Origin: Escherichia phage VEc20
Length of the DNA stretch: 64,000 nt
Strand: one strand, 5' to 3'
Sequence record: MN022785.1
Shown: positions 3,001 through 63,989 of the stretch, piece after piece
Position numbering within the stretch: the first letter of the stretch is position 1
Layout: each line of letters starts with the position of its first letter
The notes under the pieces: model-generated
Told to the model about the DNA's origin: nothing
Databases searched by the model: none
What the model saw: only the letters and a program-made list of their open reading frames with translations
Program-made: the position numbers and the translations under genes

Positions 3001-3027
3001 CAAAATGAAGAAAGGGGCCGAAGCCCC
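3001..3027 (-). terminator. intrinsic terminator downstream of hoc
   Basis: GGGGC-CGAA-GCCCC (UUCG loop in minus-strand RNA) followed on the minus strand by TTTCTTCATTTT. Confidence 0.55.
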
Positions 3028-3033
3028 TTATGA

Positions 3034-4452
3034 TTATGGATAGGTATAGATGATACCAGTTTCTAAAGCAGTTTTATGAATGATATATCCATTACGCGAT
3101 TCTTGGACATCAACTTCTGGATAGTCTTTCATCATCTTCTGAAGAGTGTAACGATGCAGGTAGTATTTACTATCTGGATCTTCAGTTTTCCAATCTTTAC
3201 CTTCTTCAGTCATTTTTTGAATTTCATCCATAACCCACCAACCGCACCAGATGTAAGCTGAGCTACGGTGTGGAAGAGGATGAACATAAGGTAATTCACC
3301 TTCTGGTTCTGGAGCAACTTTATCAGTTACCTGAACTTGACCTTCTGCCGTAATAGTTTTGCTATCATAATCAGCAGCAGTAACAGTTGCAGTAACTTCA
3401 ATAGTTTGACTTCCAATAGATGAGGTATCAACAGTATATACGTTAGTTGACCCTTCCACAGGAGAAGAATCTTTCTTCCATGAGTAAGTAATTTGTGCTG
3501 CTTCAGGTGCGCCATTAACATTAGCAGTAAATGTAGCCGAAGCATCTTGCTGAACATTAATAGAAGGAGGAGTCAATGTAACCTGTGGATTCATTGTCTT
3601 CTTATTAACTGTCAATGATACTTCATTGGAAGTAACTTCCTTTTCATTATAATTTTCTGCAGTTACTTGGGCTACGCATTTAATTCTTTTTACTCCACTT
3701 GTAGTTGGAGTATAGTTAAATGTAGAGTTAGTTTCTCCACCAACTTGTGAATCATCTACATACCACTGATACGTAGCAGACGCTCCGTCAGGTTGAGAAG
3801 CTAATGCAGCAGTAAATTGAACCGGGGTTCCAATTACTCCAGCAGCAGGACTAGCAGGAGTTACTGCCAAGGTAGTTGTCTGTGTCTTTTTATTAACTGT
3901 CAATGATACTTCATTGGAAGTAACGCTCAGTGCATCATAATCTGTCGCAGTTACTTGAGCTACACACTTAATTTTTTTAACTCCGCTTGTAGTAGGAGTA
4001 TAATTGAATGTAGCAGAAGTTGCTTCGCTCACAGGAGAACCGTCAACGTACCATTGATACGTAGCAGATGCGCCCGATGGCTGTGAAGCTAAGGCAGCAG
4101 TAAATTCAACGGCTGTTCCGATTACTCCTTCTGGAGGACTATTAGGAGTTACAGCTAAGGTAGTTGTTTGTGTCTTATTTTGAACTGTGATAGTTGTACT
4201 AATTTCAGCTGTTTCAGCTTCAGAATCAGGAATAGTATTTGTTGCAACTACCTTAATAGTCTTTTGACCAGCAGGTCCTTTTAATACATAATCAAAAGTT
4301 GCTGCTGATCCTTCTTGGGGAGCATTATCTACGCTCCAAGCATAGGTAATAGTTCCACCTCCAGTTTCACCACTGGGTGTAGCAGTAAACTGCTTGGTTT
4401 CATCAATAACCCCTGTCGGTGTTTTAGGAGTTATATCAACTGTAAAAGTCAT
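3034..4452 (-). CDS. hoc: highly immunogenic outer capsid protein Hoc with an extra Ig-like domain
   Basis: 472-aa ORF starting MTFTVDITPKTPTG with the conserved C-terminal capsid-binding region; two tandem ~96-aa Ig-like repeats of about 85% identity. Confidence 0.85.
   Translation of the reverse strand: MTFTVDITPKTPTGVIDETKQFTATPSGETGGGTITYAWSVDNAPQEGSAATFDYVLKGPAGQKTIKVVATNTIPDSEAETAEISTTITVQNKTQTTTLAVTPNSPPEGVIGTAVEFTAALASQPSGASATYQWYVDGSPVSEATSATFNYTPTTSGVKKIKCVAQVTATDYDALSVTSNEVSLTVNKKTQTTTLAVTPASPAAGVIGTPVQFTAALASQPDGASATYQWYVDDSQVGGETNSTFNYTPTTSGVKRIKCVAQVTAENYNEKEVTSNEVSLTVNKKTMNPQVTLTPPSINVQQDASATFTANVNGAPEAAQITYSWKKDSSPVEGSTNVYTVDTSSIGSQTIEVTATVTAADYDSKTITAEGQVQVTDKVAPEPEGELPYVHPLPHRSSAYIWCGWWVMDEIQKMTEEGKDWKTEDPDSKYYLHRYTLQKMMKDYPEVDVQESRNGYIIHKTALETGIIYTYP
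3601..4176 (-). repeat. tandem in-frame duplication (2 x 288 bp) inside hoc
   Basis: Sequence ttattaactgtcaatgatacttcattggaagtaac recurs at 3602 and 3890 (offset 288 bp); encodes two similar Ig-like domains. Confidence 0.85.
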
Positions 4453-15846: not shown

Positions 15847-15850
15847 CAAC

Positions 15851-15880
15851 GGGGACCTTTCGGTCCCCATATTTTTATTT
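15851..15880 (+). terminator. intrinsic terminator after gene 54
   Basis: GGGGACC-TTTC-GGTCCCC followed by ATATTTTTATTT. Confidence 0.6.
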
Positions 15881-16165
15881 GCGGAATGAAATGAAAGCAG
15901 AAACTGAAGCAACTAAACTGTCTTCAATATAAACTTCAATTTTTACCGGAGCTTCTGACTCAAATTTACCTGTTACTACACCCTGAAAAATACTTTCAGT
16001 CTGTTCTGGCTTTGAAAAATTTTCAGAAGGAAAAATTCCGAACTTTTTATCTGTTCCAAAAATTTTAATAAATTCATCGTAAACCGCTTCGTTAAAAGCA
16101 TTATCAGCAGGAATAACGCCTTCAACTACAAGTTCTTGACCTAAAAAGCGTAAAGAAGATTTCAT
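15875..16165 (-). CDS. hypothetical protein (alt.-3-like)
   Basis: 96-aa ORF with RBS GAGGAA; driven by the early promoter at 16197-16225. Confidence 0.55.
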   Translation of the reverse strand: MKSSLRFLGQELVVEGVIPADNAFNEAVYDEFIKIFGTDKKFGIFPSENFSKPEQTESIFQGVVTGKFESEAPVKIEVYIEDSLVASVSAFISFRK

Positions 16166-16196
16166 TTTGTGTTCCTCATGTTATGTCAGTAAGACT

Positions 16197-16225
16197 ACTA
16201 TAACACAACACGAGGGACTTGTAAA
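16197..16225 (-). promoter_or_regulatory. early promoter (TTTACA-N17-TATAGT)
   Basis: Minus strand GTTTACA-17 bp-TATAGT; part of a 54-bp element (16173-16226) identical to 30449-30502. Confidence 0.55.
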
Positions 16226-16401
16226 CTACATTTTGAACTTTTTAGTACGCGGAATAGGCATGCGTCGATTTTATACTGTTTCATTGTTTGAAGAGCAGTA
16301 TCAAAAACAGCATTAATGACACCAATTGGATTTCCACTCAAGTTTTTAAGCTTAACTAATGATAGTTTCTCATTAACACCTATCATTACGATATGCATCA
16401 T
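16198..16401 (-). CDS. Alt N-terminal paralog fragment (aligns to Alt residues ~65-130)
   Basis: 67-aa ORF MMHIV...TMKQYKIDAC aligning to Alt MMHIVPF...TMRQYKIDAC; ATGA-coupled to the upstream fragment. Confidence 0.5.
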   Translation of the reverse strand: MMHIVMIGVNEKLSLVKLKNLSGNPIGVINAVFDTALQTMKQYKIDACLFRVLKSSKCSLQVPRVVL

Positions 16402-16583
16402 TTTATCGCCTGGTTTAACGTTTTATTTGTATCACCGTCAGAGGTGTATGTACAAAATCTAAATCCAGGAAGTACGCTTTCTTCACCGGCTTGAATAGCA
16501 AAAATTTGAGGTATTTTATGCTTAGGATTTAAGTTAACAACCGGCGCCGAAGCGCCGTCAAATAATTCTGTAATAAGTTCCAT
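16398..16583 (-). CDS. Alt N-terminal paralog fragment (aligns to Alt residues ~2-60)
   Basis: 61-aa ORF MELITELFD...NLNPKHKIPQIF...CTYTSDGDTN aligning to the Alt N-terminus; starts 3 nt after the alt stop. Confidence 0.5.
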   Translation of the reverse strand: MELITELFDGASAPVVNLNPKHKIPQIFAIQAGEESVLPGFRFCTYTSDGDTNKTLNQAIK

Positions 16584-18921: not shown

Positions 18922-20381
18922 AGACCAGTTACCTCATGAAAATCACCAAATACATCCTCGAATGTATTAGCTTTAGTTTTATCTTCACGTAAACGAATCG
19001 CAATCGGAAGAAATAATTTAACGTAATCAGTGCGGCCATCAGATTTTAACCAACCGTTGCATTCGCACTCTAGAATTTTTCCAATATAATAATTTTGGTT
19101 TTCCATAATGCGAGTACGGTCAAGTTCATGTGATTTTACACCGGCTTTATCTTTTAAGCCTGAACCAGCATTTACCTTAATTTTTCCACACTCTGACTCA
19201 AGAATAAATCCACCCGCTTTAGTAGGGTCTTTACGGTGAGGATAAATTCCTACAATTTTTAAATCAACATCAATTACTTCTTTAAATTTATAGAGATTTT
19301 TTGAACGAGCATTTTCCCATAATCCATCGATATTTTTGAGAATAATACCTTCAAGACCTTGGTCAATATACTTTTTATAAATTACCTTAGCTTCATCTAG
19401 GTTATTTACTACCTGGTTTTCAATTAAAATTACTTTATCATAGCCTGATGTCATTTGTTCTAGTTTAGAAAAACGTACATCATATTTTAAACGAAACGCC
19501 GGAAGACCGTATATTTCTACCAACGGGACATAATCCCAGACCTGAAACTTCATGCATTGAGCTTCTTTTTCGGAAATGGTTCCCTTTAAAGATTTATTAG
19601 CGATTCCATTAGAAGTAGTACGTGATTCAGCTACTTCGGCGAATTCTTTGGCTTTACTAATTTCAGGATAAGCATCAAAAAGAAAATCTAGGCCTTCTGG
19701 CTCCTTTTTAACTTGCTCATGGTATACCAATTCGCCATCAATTAACACGCCTTCTGGATGAATCTGGCGGGCTTCAGCGGTCATTTTGATTAATTCTTCC
19801 TTAAGAAGATCTAATCCTAGATATTCATTACCGGCTCGTGATAAAAGACGAACATCATCTAATTCATCACCTCTGACTTCGGCAAAGCACCGAGCCCCAT
19901 CAGCTTTTAACTGGGCAAAGGCTGGAAATTTGATATTCTTATTAATGCCTTTTTCATCATAAGAACTTGCCAGCATTTGAGGTTGTTCAGGAATTAAACC
20001 TGGCCAAACTTTGTTTGCAATAGATACTGAAGCACCACATTCAAGGTCTCGCATCATCACTCGACGCAAAACTTCAACATCATCTTTTTTACCATCGGTG
20101 ATATATCCAGTTAATTCCTCAATTGCTGCATTTCCAGTCAATTTCCGAGTAGCTAATGTGAATTCAATGAAGTCAAGCATATCGGTAAGAGTCAACATTC
20201 CAAAACTCTGGGTAGCAATACCAGGTTTAGGCCATTTCTTGATATAATACTGCAGCCCACGAGAATAAGTCAGACGATATACTCGTTTAAGCAATTCATT
20301 ATCTTTATTCTTTTCAAGAATTGCTTGCTTCTGCTTAGTTGAACCAATAGATGCTATTTCGTTCAGAATTTTAAGAATCAT
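18918..20381 (-). CDS. 30: ATP-dependent DNA ligase gp30
   Basis: 487-aa ORF, T4 ligase length; adenylation motif KADGAR. Confidence 0.9.
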   Translation of the reverse strand: MILKILNEIASIGSTKQKQAILEKNKDNELLKRVYRLTYSRGLQYYIKKWPKPGIATQSFGMLTLTDMLDFIEFTLATRKLTGNAAIEELTGYITDGKKDDVEVLRRVMMRDLECGASVSIANKVWPGLIPEQPQMLASSYDEKGINKNIKFPAFAQLKADGARCFAEVRGDELDDVRLLSRAGNEYLGLDLLKEELIKMTAEARQIHPEGVLIDGELVYHEQVKKEPEGLDFLFDAYPEISKAKEFAEVAESRTTSNGIANKSLKGTISEKEAQCMKFQVWDYVPLVEIYGLPAFRLKYDVRFSKLEQMTSGYDKVILIENQVVNNLDEAKVIYKKYIDQGLEGIILKNIDGLWENARSKNLYKFKEVIDVDLKIVGIYPHRKDPTKAGGFILESECGKIKVNAGSGLKDKAGVKSHELDRTRIMENQNYYIGKILECECNGWLKSDGRTDYVKLFLPIAIRLREDKTKANTFEDVFGDFHEVTGL

Positions 20382-22621: not shown

Positions 22622-22638
22622 AGTATTTTCCTCAGTAA

Positions 22639-22664
22639 GGGGCCGAAGCCCCTCATTTTATTTT
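22639..22664. other. intergenic GC hairpin (GGGGC-CGAA-GCCCC)
   Basis: UUCG-loop hairpin in minus-strand RNA between two early ORFs; the T-run is on the plus side only. Confidence 0.4.
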
Positions 22665-23064: not shown

Positions 23065-23092
23065 ATAATATCATGTCCTGTACCAAAGTAAA
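23065..23092 (-). promoter_or_regulatory. early promoter (TTTACT-N16-TATTAT) inside an inverted repeat
   Basis: An 8-bp inverted repeat GGTACAGG/CCTGTACC (23054-23084) brackets the -10 region. Confidence 0.4.
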
Positions 23093-27147: not shown

Positions 27148-27176
27148 ATAATATCACAACTCTACCGTAAAGTAAA
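27148..27176 (-). promoter_or_regulatory. early promoter (TTTACT-N17-TATTAT) inside an inverted repeat
   Basis: GGTAGAG/CTCTACC inverted repeat (27139-27166) brackets the -10. Confidence 0.45.
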
Positions 27177-29597: not shown

Positions 29598-29947
29598 TTA
29601 GAAAGGTCCTGGATGTCTTCTGCGAACTTGTTGAAGGAGTTGTTGATTTGTTTTTCAACCAATCCTGGCTTATGAGCCACCACATCCGCCTTCTTTGCGT
29701 CTTTGCGCAGTTTTTCATTTTCACGCTCAATAGCAGCAATTGCCTCACGATTTTTATTATTCATCGCATCAATATAATTATACTGAATTCGCAAATTGTT
29801 TAATGCTAAAGCGTTTTCATTGGCCGTTTTTGTAATTTCTACAACAGACGTTTCTAATCTTTCAATTTTATTTTTTAAAATTAAAGAAGTTCCGCCCAAT
29901 GCAATTACAATTAATAGCAAACCTGTTGTCGTATTACTTAATTGCAT
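29594..29947 (-). CDS. pseT.3: i-spanin (N-terminal TMD, periplasmic coiled coil) candidate
   Basis: 117-aa ORF; hydrophobic segment LLLIVIALGG followed by a charged helical region. Confidence 0.55.
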   Translation of the reverse strand: MQLSNTTTGLLLIVIALGGTSLILKNKIERLETSVVEITKTANENALALNNLRIQYNYIDAMNNKNREAIAAIERENEKLRKDAKKADVVAHKPGLVEKQINNSFNKFAEDIQDLSK

Positions 29948-30444
29948 AAAGTTTTAATAACCTCTATAATATCGTCTTGAGAAAGACCGTTAATTAAAAT
30001 ATGATGTTCCGCCGGAGATTTAGAAATTTTAAAGCATGCCGCAACATCTTCTGCCATATCTGATGCACTACGATTTGGATTACTAATCCCAAGGCGGTGT
30101 TTTCCCGTTAAAGGATTAACGATGATATAGCATTTACAGTTGTTAATATGAACATTAGGTTGAGTCTGATTAATGAACACATCACAATCATATTTCGCAA
30201 GCTGATTTTCTAAAAAGACTTTCATCTCCTCAACCGCATCAGGAAGCATATCACGGGCTTGCTCAAGACGACGATTTCGATATTCTTTAATGGTCGTTTT
30301 CCGCTTGACTTGCTTAGCTAAATCTTTCTTAAGATCGGTGATATATCCAACTCGACGATTTCCTTTGAATACAGAAATCCCATCTGTAGTATCACCGTAT
30401 GCTTCAACGACCATTTCAGTAGTAATAAGTTGTAAATCCATCAT
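29938..30444 (-). CDS. alc: Alc-like transcription terminator of cytosine-containing DNA
   Basis: 168-aa ORF between the spanins and rnlA; length and position match T4 alc. Confidence 0.6.
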   Translation of the reverse strand: MMDLQLITTEMVVEAYGDTTDGISVFKGNRRVGYITDLKKDLAKQVKRKTTIKEYRNRRLEQARDMLPDAVEEMKVFLENQLAKYDCDVFINQTQPNVHINNCKCYIIVNPLTGKHRLGISNPNRSASDMAEDVAACFKISKSPAEHHILINGLSQDDIIEVIKTLCN

Positions 30445-30472
30445 AAAGTCCTCATGTTATGTCAGTAAGACT

Positions 30473-30501
30473 ACTATAACACAACACGAGGGACTTGTAA
30501 A
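30473..30501 (-). promoter_or_regulatory. early promoter (TTTACA-N17-TATAGT)
   Basis: 54-bp element 30449-30502 identical to 16173-16226, covering -35, -10, leader and RBS. Confidence 0.55.
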
Positions 30502-30505
30502 CAGC

Positions 30506-32093
<1,588 letters not shown>

Positions 32094-40228: not shown

Positions 40229-40257
40229 ATAGTATCACACTACTACCCTTCTGTAAA
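40229..40257 (-). promoter_or_regulatory. early promoter (TTTACA-N17-TACTAT)
   Basis: Member of the GATAGGGTAATAGTA...TGTAAAC promoter family. Confidence 0.5.
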
Positions 40258-40895: not shown

Positions 40896-40938
40896 ATTAT
40901 TTTCCTCTTTAATCATCAGCAGTATTGCCGATAGTTGT

Positions 40939-40967
40939 ATAGTACCATGGAAGGACAAGGATGTAAA
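40939..40967 (-). promoter_or_regulatory. early promoter (TTTACA-N17-TACTAT) with A/T-rich UP region
   Basis: Part of cassette 40930-41017, near-identical to 58478-58567 except for the -35/-10 spacer and terminator stem. Confidence 0.55.
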
Positions 40968-40989
40968 CCGTTTTGTGAAAAAATTTTTG

Positions 40990-41017
40990 AAATAAAAAGG
41001 GGACCTCTAGGGTCCCC
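40990..41017 (-). terminator. intrinsic terminator downstream of gene 32
   Basis: GGGGACC...GGTCCCC hairpin followed on the minus strand by TTTTTATTT. Confidence 0.6.
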
Positions 41018-58437: not shown

Positions 58438-58486
58438 TTTTTGTATCTCCGGGTTGTTTGTTTCAGTTCATTTATTTGATAGTTGT

Positions 58487-58515
58487 ATAGTACCACAGTA
58501 TGCTTTGGTTGTAAA
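58487..58515 (-). promoter_or_regulatory. early promoter (TTTACA-N17-TACTAT) with UP region
   Basis: Cassette 58478-58567 shares the -10 and UP/-35 flanks with 40930-41017. Confidence 0.55.
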
Positions 58516-58539
58516 CCGTTTTGTGAAAAAATTTTTGAA

Positions 58540-58567
58540 ATAAAAAAGGGAGAGCCTCGGCTCTCCC
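58540..58567 (-). terminator. intrinsic terminator
   Basis: GGGAGAGCC-TC-GGCTCTCCC followed on the minus strand by TTTTTATTT. Confidence 0.6.
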
Positions 58568-61497: not shown

Positions 61498-61597
61498 AGT
61501 AAGCGTTTAATACATCAATCATTAAAACGATTGGGAATATACTCAAAACTACTAGTATTATAACTACATTCCATATAGCTTTAACAATCTTTTTCAT
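61484..61597 (-). CDS. small membrane protein (37 aa)
   Basis: From ATG 61597 with RBS GGAGG (MKKIVKAIWNVVIILVVLSIFPIVLM...). Confidence 0.4.
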   Translation of the reverse strand: MKKIVKAIWNVVIILVVLSIFPIVLMIDVLNAYFGFM

Positions 61598-61625
61598 TTT
61601 GTGTTCCTCCGTAGTTGATAGGGTA

Positions 61626-61654
61626 ATAGTACCACGGAGGAACAGTCTTGTAAA
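61626..61654 (-). promoter_or_regulatory. early promoter (TTTACA-N17-TACTAT)
   Basis: GATAGGGTAATAGTACCA family member. Confidence 0.5.
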
Positions 61655-62103: not shown

Positions 62104-62137
62104 TTTACTCTCCAAATCCGTATCAGTTGATAGTTGT

Positions 62138-62166
62138 ATAGTACCACGGTCCTTGTGGTATGTAAA
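62138..62166 (-). promoter_or_regulatory. early promoter (TTTACA-N17-TACTAT)
   Basis: Third copy of the GATAGTTGTATAGTACCA cassette (62129-62190). Confidence 0.5.
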
Positions 62167-62183
62167 CCATTTTGTGAAATTTT

Positions 62184-62741
62184 TTAAATGGAAAGATACC
62201 ATCCGCTGTAGTTGCTTTTTCTTACAACCTTACGAAGGTCTTCTCTATCACCGATGAACTTCGGAGTGTATTGGATGACACCTGGATGAATTTCTTTAGT
62301 GTTGAATATAATTATACAGTCAGCGACTTGATGATTTAGAATGGGCCCTAGATTTATTCCAGAACCATATGGATACTCTCCGCTGCATCCTGTTGTCACC
62401 GAAATCCAACGTGAGTCAGTTTGATGTGTCTTAACTTCTACACGAAGCCCGCAGTATCTTGGATGCGCCAATACATCCCATGCATATGTGTACGGATCAT
62501 CGACATCTTCTTGACCTTTGTTAACATACCCGCTCAGCCAATCTGCTACAAAAAACTCTGCGTACACAGCGATACGGCATCTTTCGATAACTTCTGCCTT
62601 ATCCTGATTTGGGTTTTGTTTTAAAGAGTATCTTGCAGTATCAACAATTTTGACCTTCATTTCACTAGTCAAGTCACTGTTCGATAGGGTAAATGTCGGA
62701 ATCTGAAATAGTCTCTGTAACCCCGGATTCGTTTTCTGCAT
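62184..62741 (-). CDS. denB: endonuclease IV-like protein
   Basis: 185-aa ORF, T4 DenB length, between ndd and rIIB. Confidence 0.6.
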   Translation of the reverse strand: MQKTNPGLQRLFQIPTFTLSNSDLTSEMKVKIVDTARYSLKQNPNQDKAEVIERCRIAVYAEFFVADWLSGYVNKGQEDVDDPYTYAWDVLAHPRYCGLRVEVKTHQTDSRWISVTTGCSGEYPYGSGINLGPILNHQVADCIIIFNTKEIHPGVIQYTPKFIGDREDLRKVVRKSNYSGWYLSI

Positions 62742-62800: not shown

Positions 62801-62823
62801 TAAAACAAAAGGGCCGAAGCCCT
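62801..62823 (-). terminator. UUCG hairpin with U-run
   Basis: AGGGC-CGAA-GCCCT; minus-strand RNA hairpin followed by UUUUGUUUU; the same hairpin recurs at 63038. Confidence 0.45.
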
Positions 62824-62827
62824 TATT

Positions 62828-63022: not shown

Positions 63023-63037
63023 AATTTTCCTCAGTTA

Positions 63038-63051
63038 AGGGCCGAAGCCCT
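63038..63051. other. intergenic UUCG hairpin
   Basis: AGGGC-CGAA-GCCCT directly after the rIIB stop. Confidence 0.4.
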
Positions 63052-63989
63052 TATTTAAATTGTTCAGTAACGTCTTCAACTACTTCGTATTGGCAGGTAC
63101 GCATTTTAGCATCGTTGTAATCAATCGGAATTGATACTACATCACGCGGATGTACTTTAACTTTTACAACTCGGCTAGTTGAACTGCCAAAGTGACGAAT
63201 ATAAGATTTAGAACACACATGCAGACCGCGAGAACAAGTTTGTGTATCATCGTCATTCACACGAGTACGTGGCATTTTAACTACTTTACCAGGGCTGTTA
63301 TCAAAAGTATTTGAATGACAGTCAAAGTAATTGCTGCGAACTACTTTCCAAGCATAGAAGTAACCGTCTTCTGTAATTTCAATATCGTTTGCTACCAAGA
63401 AATCAAAGAGTCGAGATACCGCTTTTTGGCTTGGGTTTTCCAACAGATTTTCCAAGAACGGAAAATAGAATTCAAAGTTTTCGCCTTTTTCCATCGAGTC
63501 AAGAATACGATCAACCAAACCAGATCGCAATTCAATATTTTGATAGAACAAGCTTCCACCTTCAATTCGAACATCGCCGGAAATATATTTTTCAACAGCG
63601 CGACGAACATTAATTTTTTGTGCCGCTTCTTCCAACTTATCCGCTACAAGCAGATTAAGAATTTCCTGGAAGTTTGAATGAGTATTAGGAGTTGCGTTAT
63701 AAGTTACACCGTCAACAGTAATTGAAATGAATTTTTTAGATGCATTCCAAATAATGTCAGATTTAGCAACTGGAGCAATAACTGCATCGCTATTAACTTT
63801 AACTGTAATGTCACCGCTAATAGTAACTTTAGAGCGTTCTGCTTCTTCAGCATTTTTCAAAACACGACGGATTGTGTCAACCGATACACCTTGCCAATCA
63901 GCCAATTCCTGTTGGGTGTAATTACCACTTGAATACAGCTTAACAATTTCAGCTTGTTCGTTTTTGGTCAGGCATTTAATATTGTACAT
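63051..63989 (-). CDS. rIIB: rIIB protein
   Basis: 312-aa ORF, T4 rIIB length, at the end of the early array. Confidence 0.8.
   Translation of the reverse strand: MYNIKCLTKNEQAEIVKLYSSGNYTQQELADWQGVSVDTIRRVLKNAEEAERSKVTISGDITVKVNSDAVIAPVAKSDIIWNASKKFISITVDGVTYNATPNTHSNFQEILNLLVADKLEEAAQKINVRRAVEKYISGDVRIEGGSLFYQNIELRSGLVDRILDSMEKGENFEFYFPFLENLLENPSQKAVSRLFDFLVANDIEITEDGYFYAWKVVRSNYFDCHSNTFDNSPGKVVKMPRTRVNDDDTQTCSRGLHVCSKSYIRHFGSSTSRVVKVKVHPRDVVSIPIDYNDAKMRTCQYEVVEDVTEQFK

What the first reader, a model, noticed from the sequence alone, without database searches (positions are those of the whole stretch)
16173..16226. Identical 54-bp promoter-leader-RBS cassette at two loci 14 kb apart
The string tcctcatgttatgtcagtaagactactataacacaacacgagggacttgtaaac occurs identically at 16173-16226 (upstream of the 96-aa ORF beyond alt) and 30449-30502 (upstream of alc). 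On the minus strand it reads GTTTACA-17 bp-TATAGT, then a leader and GAGGA RBS ending 4-5 nt before each ATG. Such identity between unrelated genes fits a mobile regulatory cassette that also offers homology for recombination.
Basis: partly seen in the sequence, partly recalled or inferred. Interest (0 to 1): 0.5.

Follow-up and report, generated by a model that had tools for sequence, protein, structure and literature searches.

The report
Shared early promoter-leader cassette in T4
Two unrelated early genes of a T4-like phage (alc and alt.-3) are driven by the same 54-bp promoter-plus-leader; the two copies appear to be kept alike by copying between the sites, and the unit is predicted to fold so that only RNA started at its own promoter exposes the ribosome-binding site.

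Summary
An exact, maximal 54-bp direct repeat lies at 16173-16226 and 30449-30502, and it is the longest perfect dispersed repeat in the window. The window is a Tequatrovirus about 98% identical to T4. T4 itself has the pair at 53/54, and about 500 sequenced relatives carry both copies, so this is not an assembly artefact.

On the minus strand each copy fills a whole intergenic space: TTTACA, 17 bp, TGt-TATAGT, a roughly 25-nt leader, and GAGGA. One copy precedes alt.-3 (DUF5498) and the other precedes alc.

Both slots also hold an early promoter in Mosigvirus, Dhakavirus and Gaprivervirus, but those are ordinary, non-identical ones. Near-identity is therefore a Tequatrovirus feature. In 22 genomes the two loci have no fixed difference and share 7 of 15 variant alleles, including two-site combinations. 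This indicates recurrent gene conversion between the loci, not a roaming element.

New here: the promoter spacer is complementary to the leader and SD. Read-through RNA folds into an 18-bp hairpin (-22 kcal/mol, z -5.4) that masks GAGG. RNA from the predicted +1 is unstructured. This resembles the T4 e/soc/49/I-TevI gate, but with an early promoter inside the hairpin. The gate function is inferred, not shown.

The parts
16173..16226 (-). Cassette copy A. It fills the whole intergenic unit upstream of alt.-3. Numbering used in this report: position 1 = G at 16226, position 54 = A at 16173.
   Evidence: Exact repeat. In phages with a full-length second alt gene, that CDS ends on cassette base 1, giving TA|G.
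30449..30502 (-). Cassette copy B. It lies between the rnlA stop (TAA + GCT) and alc.
16220..16225 (-). -35 hexamer TTTACA of copy A (copy B: 30496-30501).
16197..16205 (-). Extended -10, TGtTATAGT, of copy A (copy B: 30473-30481).
   Evidence: 'TG_before_second: yes'.
16190..16190 (-). Predicted transcription start of copy A: A at cassette position 37, 7 nt after the -10 (copy B: 30466). Predicted, not mapped.
   Evidence: Inference from promoter geometry. Primary transcripts starting here are unstructured.
16202..16215 (-). 5' arm of the read-through hairpin in copy A (cassette positions 12-25, CCUCGUGUUGUGUU). It contains the anti-SD CCUC and lies in the promoter spacer and the start of the -10. 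Copy B: 30478-30491.
16174..16187 (-). 3' arm of the hairpin in copy A (cassette positions 40-53, GACAUAACAUGAGG). It contains the Shine-Dalgarno GAGG. Copy B: 30450-30463; there the stem extends to 30446 through AAGUCC/GGACUU.
15875..16165 (-). alt.-3, 96 aa, DUF5498. This is the gene expressed from copy A.
   Evidence: Classed as early RNA and early protein in T4.
29938..30444 (-). [quoted passage not shown] It is the first gene expressed from copy B. The T4-annotated start is the second ATG, at 30441.
15849..15870 (.). Bidirectional intrinsic terminator between alt.-3 and gene 54. It closes the one-gene alt.-3 transcription unit.
16198..16583 (-). alt.-1 and alt.-2, remnants of a second alt gene and the source of read-through into copy A. 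The alt.-2 frame ends inside the cassette, at the TAG within TATAGT.
30506..31630 (-). rnlA (gene 63), the upstream gene whose transcripts read into copy B. No terminator lies between it and the cassette.

Best explanation
The 54 bp are one complete expression unit of a T4-type phage: a host-sigma-70 'early' promoter (TTTACA, 17 bp, TGn-TATAGT), a leader of about 25 nt, and the Shine-Dalgarno GAGGA. The unit occupies the whole intergenic space in front of alc and in front of alt.-3.

Both positions are old promoter slots shared by several T-even genera. In Tequatrovirus one resident promoter was overwritten by the other. The alc version was probably copied into the alt.-3 slot. Since then the phage's homologous-recombination machinery has kept exchanging short tracts between the two copies in both directions. 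In many genomes, including this one, the copies are therefore identical.

The unit is also a structural switch. Its promoter spacer carries an anti-SD (CCUC...) that pairs with the leader and SD over 14 + 4 bp. Transcripts arriving from upstream (rnlA into alc; the late alt genes into alt.-3) contain both arms and hide the ribosome-binding site. Transcripts started at the cassette's own promoter begin between the arms and leave it open. Alc and Alt.-3 would then be translated only while early promoters fire.

What is shown: the repeat, the promoter match, positional conservation, shared polymorphisms, and the predicted fold with its conservation. What is inferred: the start site, the direction of the first replacement, and the translational gating.
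For: Repeat and promoter.
- establish the repeat and the promoter match.
- The repeat is the longest perfect dispersed repeat in the window; other early-promoter families are 62-92% identical.

Promoter function.
- In T4 omics data, alt.-3 and alc are early RNA and early protein. alt.-1 and alt.-2 just upstream are 'middle' with no protein detected, and alt is late. This needs a separate early promoter exactly where copy A lies.

Old promoter slots.
- Mosigvirus (APCEc01, phiC120, JS09), Dhakavirus (L016, L022-L026) and Gaprivervirus (VR25) all have GTTTACA...TA-type promoters in the same two intergenic spaces. These are only 65-77% identical to the cassette, and A versus B is 73-81%.

Exchange between the loci, from 22 Tequatrovirus genomes.
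- 8 of 22 genomes have A = B. RB51 has 16A in both copies and ZCEC15 has 29A+32A in both.
- There is no fixed A/B difference.
- 7 of 15 alleles occur at both loci (11T, 15T, 16A, 29A, 32A, 33A, 34T), and so do the allele pairs 29A+32A, 11T+16A and 32A+34T.
- Mean A-B distance (about 2.0) is no larger than A-A distance (2.4).
- One Dhakavirus contig (L022) shows an independent partial A/B conversion.

Hairpin.
- The 54-nt RNA folds at -22 kcal/mol, z -5.39, with 0 of 200 shuffles folding as well. With flanks: -23.3 (A) and -31.3 (B) kcal/mol.
- Primary transcripts fold at only -2.2 and -1.8 kcal/mol, z about -0.3.
- All 20 haplotypes keep GAGG paired, at -16.2 to -23.8 kcal/mol.
- Most variation falls in the loop or bulge (27, 29, 32-34) or is pairing-compatible (13T, 15T, 16A, 40A, 42T, 49C).
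- The Dhakavirus alc promoter has a different sequence but the same anti-SD/SD hairpin (CUCCUCAU/AUGAGGAG, z -4.1 to -4.5). The Dhakavirus alt.-3 promoter and both Mosigvirus promoters do not.
- No terminator lies between the upstream genes and either copy.
- The mechanism is precedented for T4 e, soc, 49 and I-TevI (PMC3014915).
Against: - No 5' end has been mapped at either copy. I found no genome-wide T4 start-site map in the library.
- The within- versus between-genome permutation test for A/B similarity is not significant (1.86 vs 2.03 differences, p = 0.19). The case for conversion therefore rests on shared alleles and allele combinations, and some of those sit in the unconstrained loop where recurrent mutation is possible.
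- My genome sample was chosen partly by cassette variant.
- The direction alc to alt.-3 rests on the hairpin feature only. Overall identity to Dhakavirus B (76%) versus A (73%) does not discriminate.
- Three rare variants break a stem pair (12A, 18A, 40T).
- In T4-type genomes the alt.-2 remnant ORF runs through the 5' arm, so any translation of it would open the hairpin on read-through RNA.
- rnlA RNA is itself 'early', so the benefit of gating at alc is less obvious than at alt.-3.
Confidence: 0.62

Rival explanations
1. PeSL-type mobile regulatory cassette. On this view the promoter unit is a portable module that moves, together with adjacent ORFs, between genome positions by recombination or mini-circle formation. 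The alc and alt.-3 copies would mark such insertions.
For: PeSLs are documented in T4-type phages, including the T4/PST pair, with promoter consensus TTTACW-N17-TAYWAT (PMC2839356 and PMC4122927). Copy A borders a variable region, the second alt gene, which is full-length or deleted. Site A is mosaic: its TIR is 18/18 identical to that of another early gene at 61592-61609.
Against: There are only two copies per genome in about 500 genomes. Both slots and both downstream genes are syntenic and already promoter-bearing in other genera. No stem-loop or terminator lies upstream of the promoter. The alt-paralog deletion ends 19 nt upstream of the cassette, not at it. A crossover between the two direct copies would delete 14.3 kb that includes essential genes 30 and 31, so only non-crossover exchange is viable.
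Confidence: 0.12
2. The hairpin is real but serves another purpose. It could be a processing or stability element for upstream mRNAs, a transcriptional pause or attenuator, or a DNA-level inverted repeat (a protein-binding site or cruciform) that modulates the promoter, for example during early-promoter shut-off.
For: Six of twelve early promoters in the window place their -10 inside a strong hairpin. In three of these (40257, 27176, 23092) the SD is not in the stem, so SD masking cannot be the general reason for the architecture. The mechanism of early-promoter shut-off is described as not completely understood (PMC3014915).
Against: No U-run follows the stem, so it is not an intrinsic terminator. 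In the cassette, in the Dhakavirus alc promoter and at 61654, the 3' arm is exactly the SD, and all 20 haplotypes keep it paired. No Rfam family matches the cassette.
Confidence: 0.2
3. There is no exchange between the loci. On this view the two copies are an old duplication held identical by strong purifying selection on promoter and leader, and the shared variants are recurrent mutations.
For: Many shared variants lie at loop positions (29, 32, 33, 34), where change is tolerated. The within-genome similarity test is not significant.
Against: The same two slots in other genera hold promoters that are only 73-81% alike, so the slots do not force identity. Promoter spacers are normally free to vary. 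Two-site allele combinations (29A+32A, 11T+16A, 32A+34T) recur at both loci, and private variants occur in both copies of single genomes (RB51, ZCEC15).
Confidence: 0.05
4. The repeat is an assembly or sequencing artefact that duplicated a segment.
For: None.
Against: The repeat is present in hundreds of independently sequenced phages and metagenome contigs, with different unique flanks at each site.
Confidence: 0.01

Closest known systems
T4 early (Pe) promoters: sigma-70 'UP/-35/TGn/-10' promoters (Hinton 2010, PMC2988021)
   Same: GTTTACA -35, 17-bp spacer, TGn extended -10, and position immediately upstream of early genes. Both downstream genes show early expression.
   Different: The -10 is TATAGT rather than the usual TA(c/t)TAT/TATAAT seen in the window's other early promoters. 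The 'ATCAAC' motif after +1 is missing. The repeat itself contains no AT-rich UP element.
PeSL (promoter-early stem-loop) cassettes of T4-type phages (Arbiol 2010, PMC2839356; Comeau 2014, PMC4122927)
   Same: A repeated early-promoter unit that extends to the SD and serves as a substrate for homologous exchange between different genome positions.
   Different: There is no stem-loop or terminator upstream of the promoter. Only two copies exist. Both are in conserved slots before conserved genes. The exchange replaces the promoter itself, not the neighbouring ORFs. The stem-loop here encloses the -10 and +1 rather than preceding the promoter.
RBS-masking hairpins with an internal promoter at T4 genes e, soc, 49 and I-TevI, and mobE of Aeh1 (Uzan & Miller 2010, PMC3014915)
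   Same: The SD is paired in long upstream-initiated transcripts. A promoter located inside the structure gives transcripts that lack the 5' arm and can be translated.
   Different: In the known cases the internal promoter is a late promoter, so translation is restricted to late times. Here it is an early sigma-70 promoter, which would restrict translation to the first minutes. alc and alt.-3 are not among the described cases. No experiment exists for them.
Concerted evolution of dispersed repeats by gene conversion (general phenomenon)
   Same: Paralogous copies share polymorphisms and lack fixed differences, while their flanks are unrelated.
   Different: The tract is very short (54 bp) and bounded by the -35 and SD motifs common to all early promoters. 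Exchange among co-infecting phages blurs the within-genome signal.

Membership tests
T4-type early (sigma-70) promoter | -35 GTTTAC(A/T) and -10 TAnnnT hexamers separated by 17 +/- 1 bp | tested here: met
   TTTACA-17-TATAGT, 10 of 12 positions, at both copies.
T4-type early (sigma-70) promoter | Extended -10 TGn | tested here: met
   TGtTATAGT.
T4-type early (sigma-70) promoter | AT-rich UP element upstream of the -35 | tested here: inconclusive
   The upstream flanks differ between copies and are coding sequence. They are moderately A/T-rich (ctaaaaagttcaaaatgta; aaaaattataaaaaatttatcc) but lack the long A/T block of the window's typical early promoters.
T4-type early (sigma-70) promoter | Transcript 5' end about 7 nt downstream of the -10 immediately after infection, independent of phage protein synthesis | not testable with these tools
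   There is only indirect support. alt.-3 and alc are early RNA and early protein, while alt.-1/alt.-2 are middle and alt is late.
PeSL cassette | Early promoter extending to the SD and start codon | tested here: met
PeSL cassette | Stable stem-loop (terminator/attenuator) just upstream of the AT-rich region and -35 | tested here: not met
   No terminator-like site lies upstream of either copy. Site B has only a weak 5-bp UAUCC/GGAUA hairpin inside rnlA.
PeSL cassette | Many copies clustered in hyperplastic regions next to variable ORFans | tested here: not met
   There are two copies per genome, in front of conserved syntenic genes.
RBS-masking hairpin relieved by an internal promoter (e/soc/49/I-TevI type) | SD and/or AUG paired in transcripts initiated upstream | tested here: met
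   In silico only. GAGG is paired in the MFE and centroid structures, z -5.4. This is kept in 20 of 20 haplotypes and in the Dhakavirus alc orthologue.
RBS-masking hairpin relieved by an internal promoter (e/soc/49/I-TevI type) | Promoter placed so that its transcripts lack the 5' arm | tested here: met
   The -10 lies at positions 25-30 and the predicted +1 at 37, after the 14-nt outer 5' arm (12-25) that carries the anti-SD. The primary transcript folds at about -2 kcal/mol. The start site is predicted, not mapped.
RBS-masking hairpin relieved by an internal promoter (e/soc/49/I-TevI type) | The internal promoter is a T4 late promoter (TATAAATA) | tested here: not met
   The promoter is of sigma-70 early type, and no TATAAATA lies within the cassette.
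RBS-masking hairpin relieved by an internal promoter (e/soc/49/I-TevI type) | Demonstrated reduction of translation from long transcripts | not testable with these tools
   This needs reporter or toeprint experiments.
Intrinsic terminator | GC-rich hairpin followed by a U-run | tested here: not met
   The stem is followed by ACACAAAAUG (A) or (CUU)UAUGAUG (B). The scan finds none.

The most novel reading that the evidence does not exclude
A subset of T4-type early promoters, namely the alc/alt.-3 cassette, the Dhakavirus alc promoter and the promoter at window 61654, are built inside hairpins whose 3' arm is the ribosome-binding site. This would form an 'early-only' translational gate, the mirror image of the classical 'late-only' gate at e, soc, 49 and I-TevI. 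The whole promoter-plus-gate unit would be what gene conversion copies between promoter slots, which would explain why the identity runs exactly from the -35 to the SD.
Probability: 0.4. Interest if true: 0.55.

Novelty: new variant of a known kind. Interest (0 to 1): 0.42.

Why it matters
T4 is the reference system for phage gene regulation. Repeated early-promoter units and RBS-masking hairpins are both known there. What is added here is that the two features coincide in one 54-bp unit, that the unit was copied into a second, pre-existing promoter slot, and that the two copies share a common pool of variants.

If the gate works as predicted, it gives a simple cis-acting explanation for how Alc, a potent transcription blocker, and Alt.-3 are confined to the first minutes of infection despite continuous read-through from upstream genes. 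It would also extend a textbook mechanism from late to early promoters.

It is a clean, small natural example for measuring the minimal homology and tract length of gene conversion in T4. For annotation, it shows that the alt.-2 ORF tail is promoter sequence, not coding sequence.

Tried and rejected
1. N-terminal homology of Alt.-3 and Alc, suggested by ELVVEG versus EMVVEAYG. BLASTP finds no alignment, so this is rejected.

2. The cassette boundary as the junction of the alt-paralog deletion. The deletion's right end is 19 nt upstream, so this is rejected.

3. Within-genome excess similarity as proof of concerted evolution. The permutation test gives p = 0.19, so it is not used as evidence.

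4. Sequence identity to other genera as a way to fix the direction of the first replacement. The values are 76% versus 73%, which is not discriminating.

5. Rfam scan of 15.5-31 kb. Nothing matches at the cassette. There are only two sub-threshold chance hits elsewhere.

6. Literature searches for a T4 genome-wide TSS map, and for any earlier mention of an alc/alt.-3 promoter repeat or of hairpins around early promoters. Nothing was found in the held library. Miller et al. 2003 (PMC150520) is not held. The classic T4 literature may therefore already note the repeat, and I could not check this.

7. IMG/VR and metagenome scans added only a few contigs.

8. Terminator function of the hairpin. There is no U-run, so this is rejected.

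Full report
OBSERVATION

The 54-mer TCCTCATGTTATGTCAGTAAGACTACTATAACACAACACGAGGGACTTGTAAAC occurs exactly twice in the window, at 16173-16226 and 30449-30502. No third match appears at up to 3 mismatches, and none appeared in 100 shuffles. The bases flanking both ends differ, so the repeat is maximal, and the flanks are otherwise unrelated. It is the longest perfect dispersed repeat in the 64 kb. Other repeated early-promoter segments are 62-92% identical.

The window is a Tequatrovirus about 98% identical to T4. T4 NC_000866.4 carries both copies, and its copy A differs at one base. Megablast finds the 54-mer in 448 phage records. Each flanked site is present in about 497 records. An assembly artefact is therefore excluded.

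ANATOMY

I number the cassette on the minus strand, with position 1 = G of GTTTACA.

- -35: TTTACA at positions 2-7
- spacer: 17 nt at positions 8-24
- extended -10: TG at 22-23
- -10: TATAGT at 25-30
- predicted +1: about position 37
- SD: GAGGA at 50-54

The promoter matches 10 of 12 consensus positions plus TG.

Copy A precedes alt.-3 (96 aa, PF17602 DUF5498), with 7 nt between the SD and the ATG. Copy B precedes alc (PF17527), with 4 nt to the first ATG and 7 nt to the second. The second is the start annotated in T4. The two proteins are unrelated.

Each copy fills its intergenic space completely. At B the rnlA stop TAA is 3 nt upstream. At A, in phages with an intact second alt gene (685 aa; RB51, RB18, ZCEC15 and others), that gene's stop codon TAG ends on cassette base 1.

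In T4 and in this window the second alt gene has lost about 1.69 kb and is frameshifted, leaving alt.-1 and alt.-2. The deletion junction lies 19 nt upstream of the cassette, so the cassette edge is not the deletion junction. alt.-3 is followed by a bidirectional terminator at 15849-15870, and no terminator precedes either copy.

IS IT A PROMOTER?

No mapped 5' end was available. Indirect evidence is good.

- In published T4 time-resolved omics, alt.-3 and alc are early RNA and early protein.
- In the same data, alt.-1 and alt.-2 immediately upstream are 'middle' with no protein detected, and alt is late (PMC9697503).
- Early promoters sit in the same two intergenic slots in Mosigvirus, Dhakavirus and Gaprivervirus.

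ORIGIN OF THE IDENTITY

In those other genera the two promoters are ordinary T4-type early promoters (TACTAT, 'ATCAAC'). They are only 65-77% identical to the cassette and 73-81% identical to each other. Near-identity of A and B is therefore specific to Tequatrovirus.

I compared both copies in 22 Tequatrovirus genomes.

- 8 genomes have identical copies. RB51 has 16A in both, and ZCEC15 has 29A+32A in both.
- There is no fixed difference between the loci.
- 7 of 15 variant alleles occur at both loci.
- So do the two-site combinations 29A+32A, 11T+16A and 32A+34T.
- Mean A-B distance (about 2.0) is not larger than the A-A distance (2.4).

The simplest reading is recurrent, bidirectional gene conversion between the loci. 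A permutation test for extra similarity within genomes was not significant (1.86 vs 2.03 differences, p = 0.19). I attribute this to frequent exchange among phages that uncouples loci 14 kb apart, but it does mean the case rests on shared alleles and allele combinations. One Dhakavirus contig (L022) shows an independent partial A/B conversion of leader, SD and spacer.

A reciprocal crossover between the two direct copies would remove 14.3 kb that includes essential genes 30 and 31. Only non-crossover exchange is therefore expected to survive. That expectation is an inference from T4 gene content.

THE HAIRPIN (NEW)

The promoter spacer is complementary to the leader and SD. As RNA, the 54 nt fold into an 18-bp hairpin:

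- outer stem: positions 12-25 pair with 40-53
- bulge: positions 26-27
- inner stem: positions 28-31 pair with 36-39
- loop: positions 32-35
- energy: -22 kcal/mol, z -5.39, with 0 of 200 shuffles folding as well

CCUC pairs with GAGG. With natural flanks the values are -23.3 kcal/mol (A) and -31.3 kcal/mol (B). At B the stem is lengthened by AAGUCC/GGACUU to within 1 nt of the first AUG. RNAs starting at the predicted +1 fold at only about -2 kcal/mol, z about -0.3.

All 20 haplotypes keep GAGG paired, at -16.2 to -23.8 kcal/mol. Variation sits mainly in the loop or bulge, or is pairing-compatible. Three rare variants break one pair each.

The Dhakavirus alc promoter has a different sequence but the same arrangement (CUCCUCAU/AUGAGGAG, z -4.1 to -4.5). 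The Dhakavirus alt.-3 promoter and both Mosigvirus promoters lack it. This is why I think the alc version is the original and alt.-3 the recipient. Overall identity does not settle the direction.

MECHANISM PROPOSED

Transcripts entering from rnlA, or from the late alt genes, carry both arms and mask the ribosome-binding site. Transcripts from the cassette's own promoter start between the arms and can be translated. Alc and Alt.-3 would thus be made only while early promoters fire.

This is the logic established for T4 e, soc, 49 and I-TevI, where the internal promoter is a late one (PMC3014915). alc and alt.-3 are not listed there, and here the internal promoter is early.

Caveats:
- The alt.-2 remnant frame crosses the 5' arm in T4-type genomes.
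- rnlA RNA is also early.
- Three other hairpin-embedded early promoters in the window do not include their SD in the stem, so the architecture may have a further, unknown role.

COMPARISON WITH KNOWN SYSTEMS

This unit shares the promoter-to-SD repeat and the role of recombination. It fails the defining upstream stem-loop, the multi-copy distribution and the association with variable ORFans. No Rfam family matches.

I classify it as a new variant of known kinds: a T4 early promoter, homogenised between two slots, combined with an RBS-masking hairpin of the e/soc type but with early polarity. I could not read the classic T4 genome review, so earlier mention of the repeat cannot be excluded.

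VERDICT

Interest is moderate (0.42). The repeat itself is ordinary for T4 biology. The promoter-in-hairpin gate and the evidence that the two slots exchange sequence are the parts worth an experiment.

Noticed in passing
window 61597-61654 (-): Another early promoter (GTTTACA..TGGTACTAT) whose spacer UUCCUCCGU pairs with its own SD ACGGAGGAA. The read-through hairpin folds at -22.4 kcal/mol, z -5.6. It drives a 37-aa hydrophobic ORF starting at 61597. This is the same promoter-in-hairpin design as the cassette with an unrelated stem sequence.
   Followed up: partly
window 16160-16177 and 61592-61609: An 18/18 identical translation-initiation region, TTTCATTTTGTGTTCCTC (= GAGGAACACAAAATGAAA), is shared by alt.-3 and the 37-aa ORF. 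It overlaps the cassette's SD, so site A is a mosaic of two repeat families.
   Followed up: no
window 40229-40257, 27148-27176, 23065-23092 (-): Three further early promoters (upstream of frd.1, cd.2 and 30.7 by position) have strong hairpins whose arms flank the -10 (z -2.9 to -4.3) but do not include the SD. Six of twelve early promoters in the window have the -10 inside a hairpin. I found no description of this in the papers I could read.
   Followed up: partly
window 40930-41003, 58478-58551, 62129-62202: A 74-nt early-promoter repeat family covering the -10, the -35, the AT-rich UP element and part of an upstream GC hairpin, at 86% and 62% identity. This family looks much more like the published PeSL layout than the alc/alt.-3 cassette does.
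   Followed up: no
window 16198-16583 (-), junction about 16237-16245: alt.-1 and alt.-2 are the remains of a second alt gene that is full-length (685 aa) in RB51, RB18, ZCEC15, phage 132, EH2, PST and others. The T4-type allele lacks about 1.69 kb, with about 9 nt aligning on both sides of the junction. The alt.-2 reading frame ends at the TAG inside the cassette's TATAGT.
   Followed up: yes
L022 2490-2549 vs 19059-19119 (IMG/VR Dhakavirus contig 2706795356_000001): In this Dhakavirus the 3' half of the alc promoter unit (ACCTTACACAAACATGAGGAGAACATTATG) is identical to that of its alt.-3 promoter, unlike four sister contigs. This is an independent partial conversion between the same two slots in another genus.
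   Followed up: partly
window 3595-4170: A tandem pair of 288-nt units at 79% identity, which looks like an internal domain duplication in a structural gene.
   Followed up: no
window 3009-3031, 22634-22656, 62805-62827, 63033-63055: A repeated GGGGCCGAAGCCCC-type terminator hairpin family at four sites.
   Followed up: no
window 20082-20109 and 30322-30349: A 28-nt repeat at 89% identity (ATCTTT.TTA..ATCGGTGATATATCCA). One copy lies inside the 5' part of alc, about 100 nt downstream of cassette copy B. Its significance is unknown.
   Followed up: no
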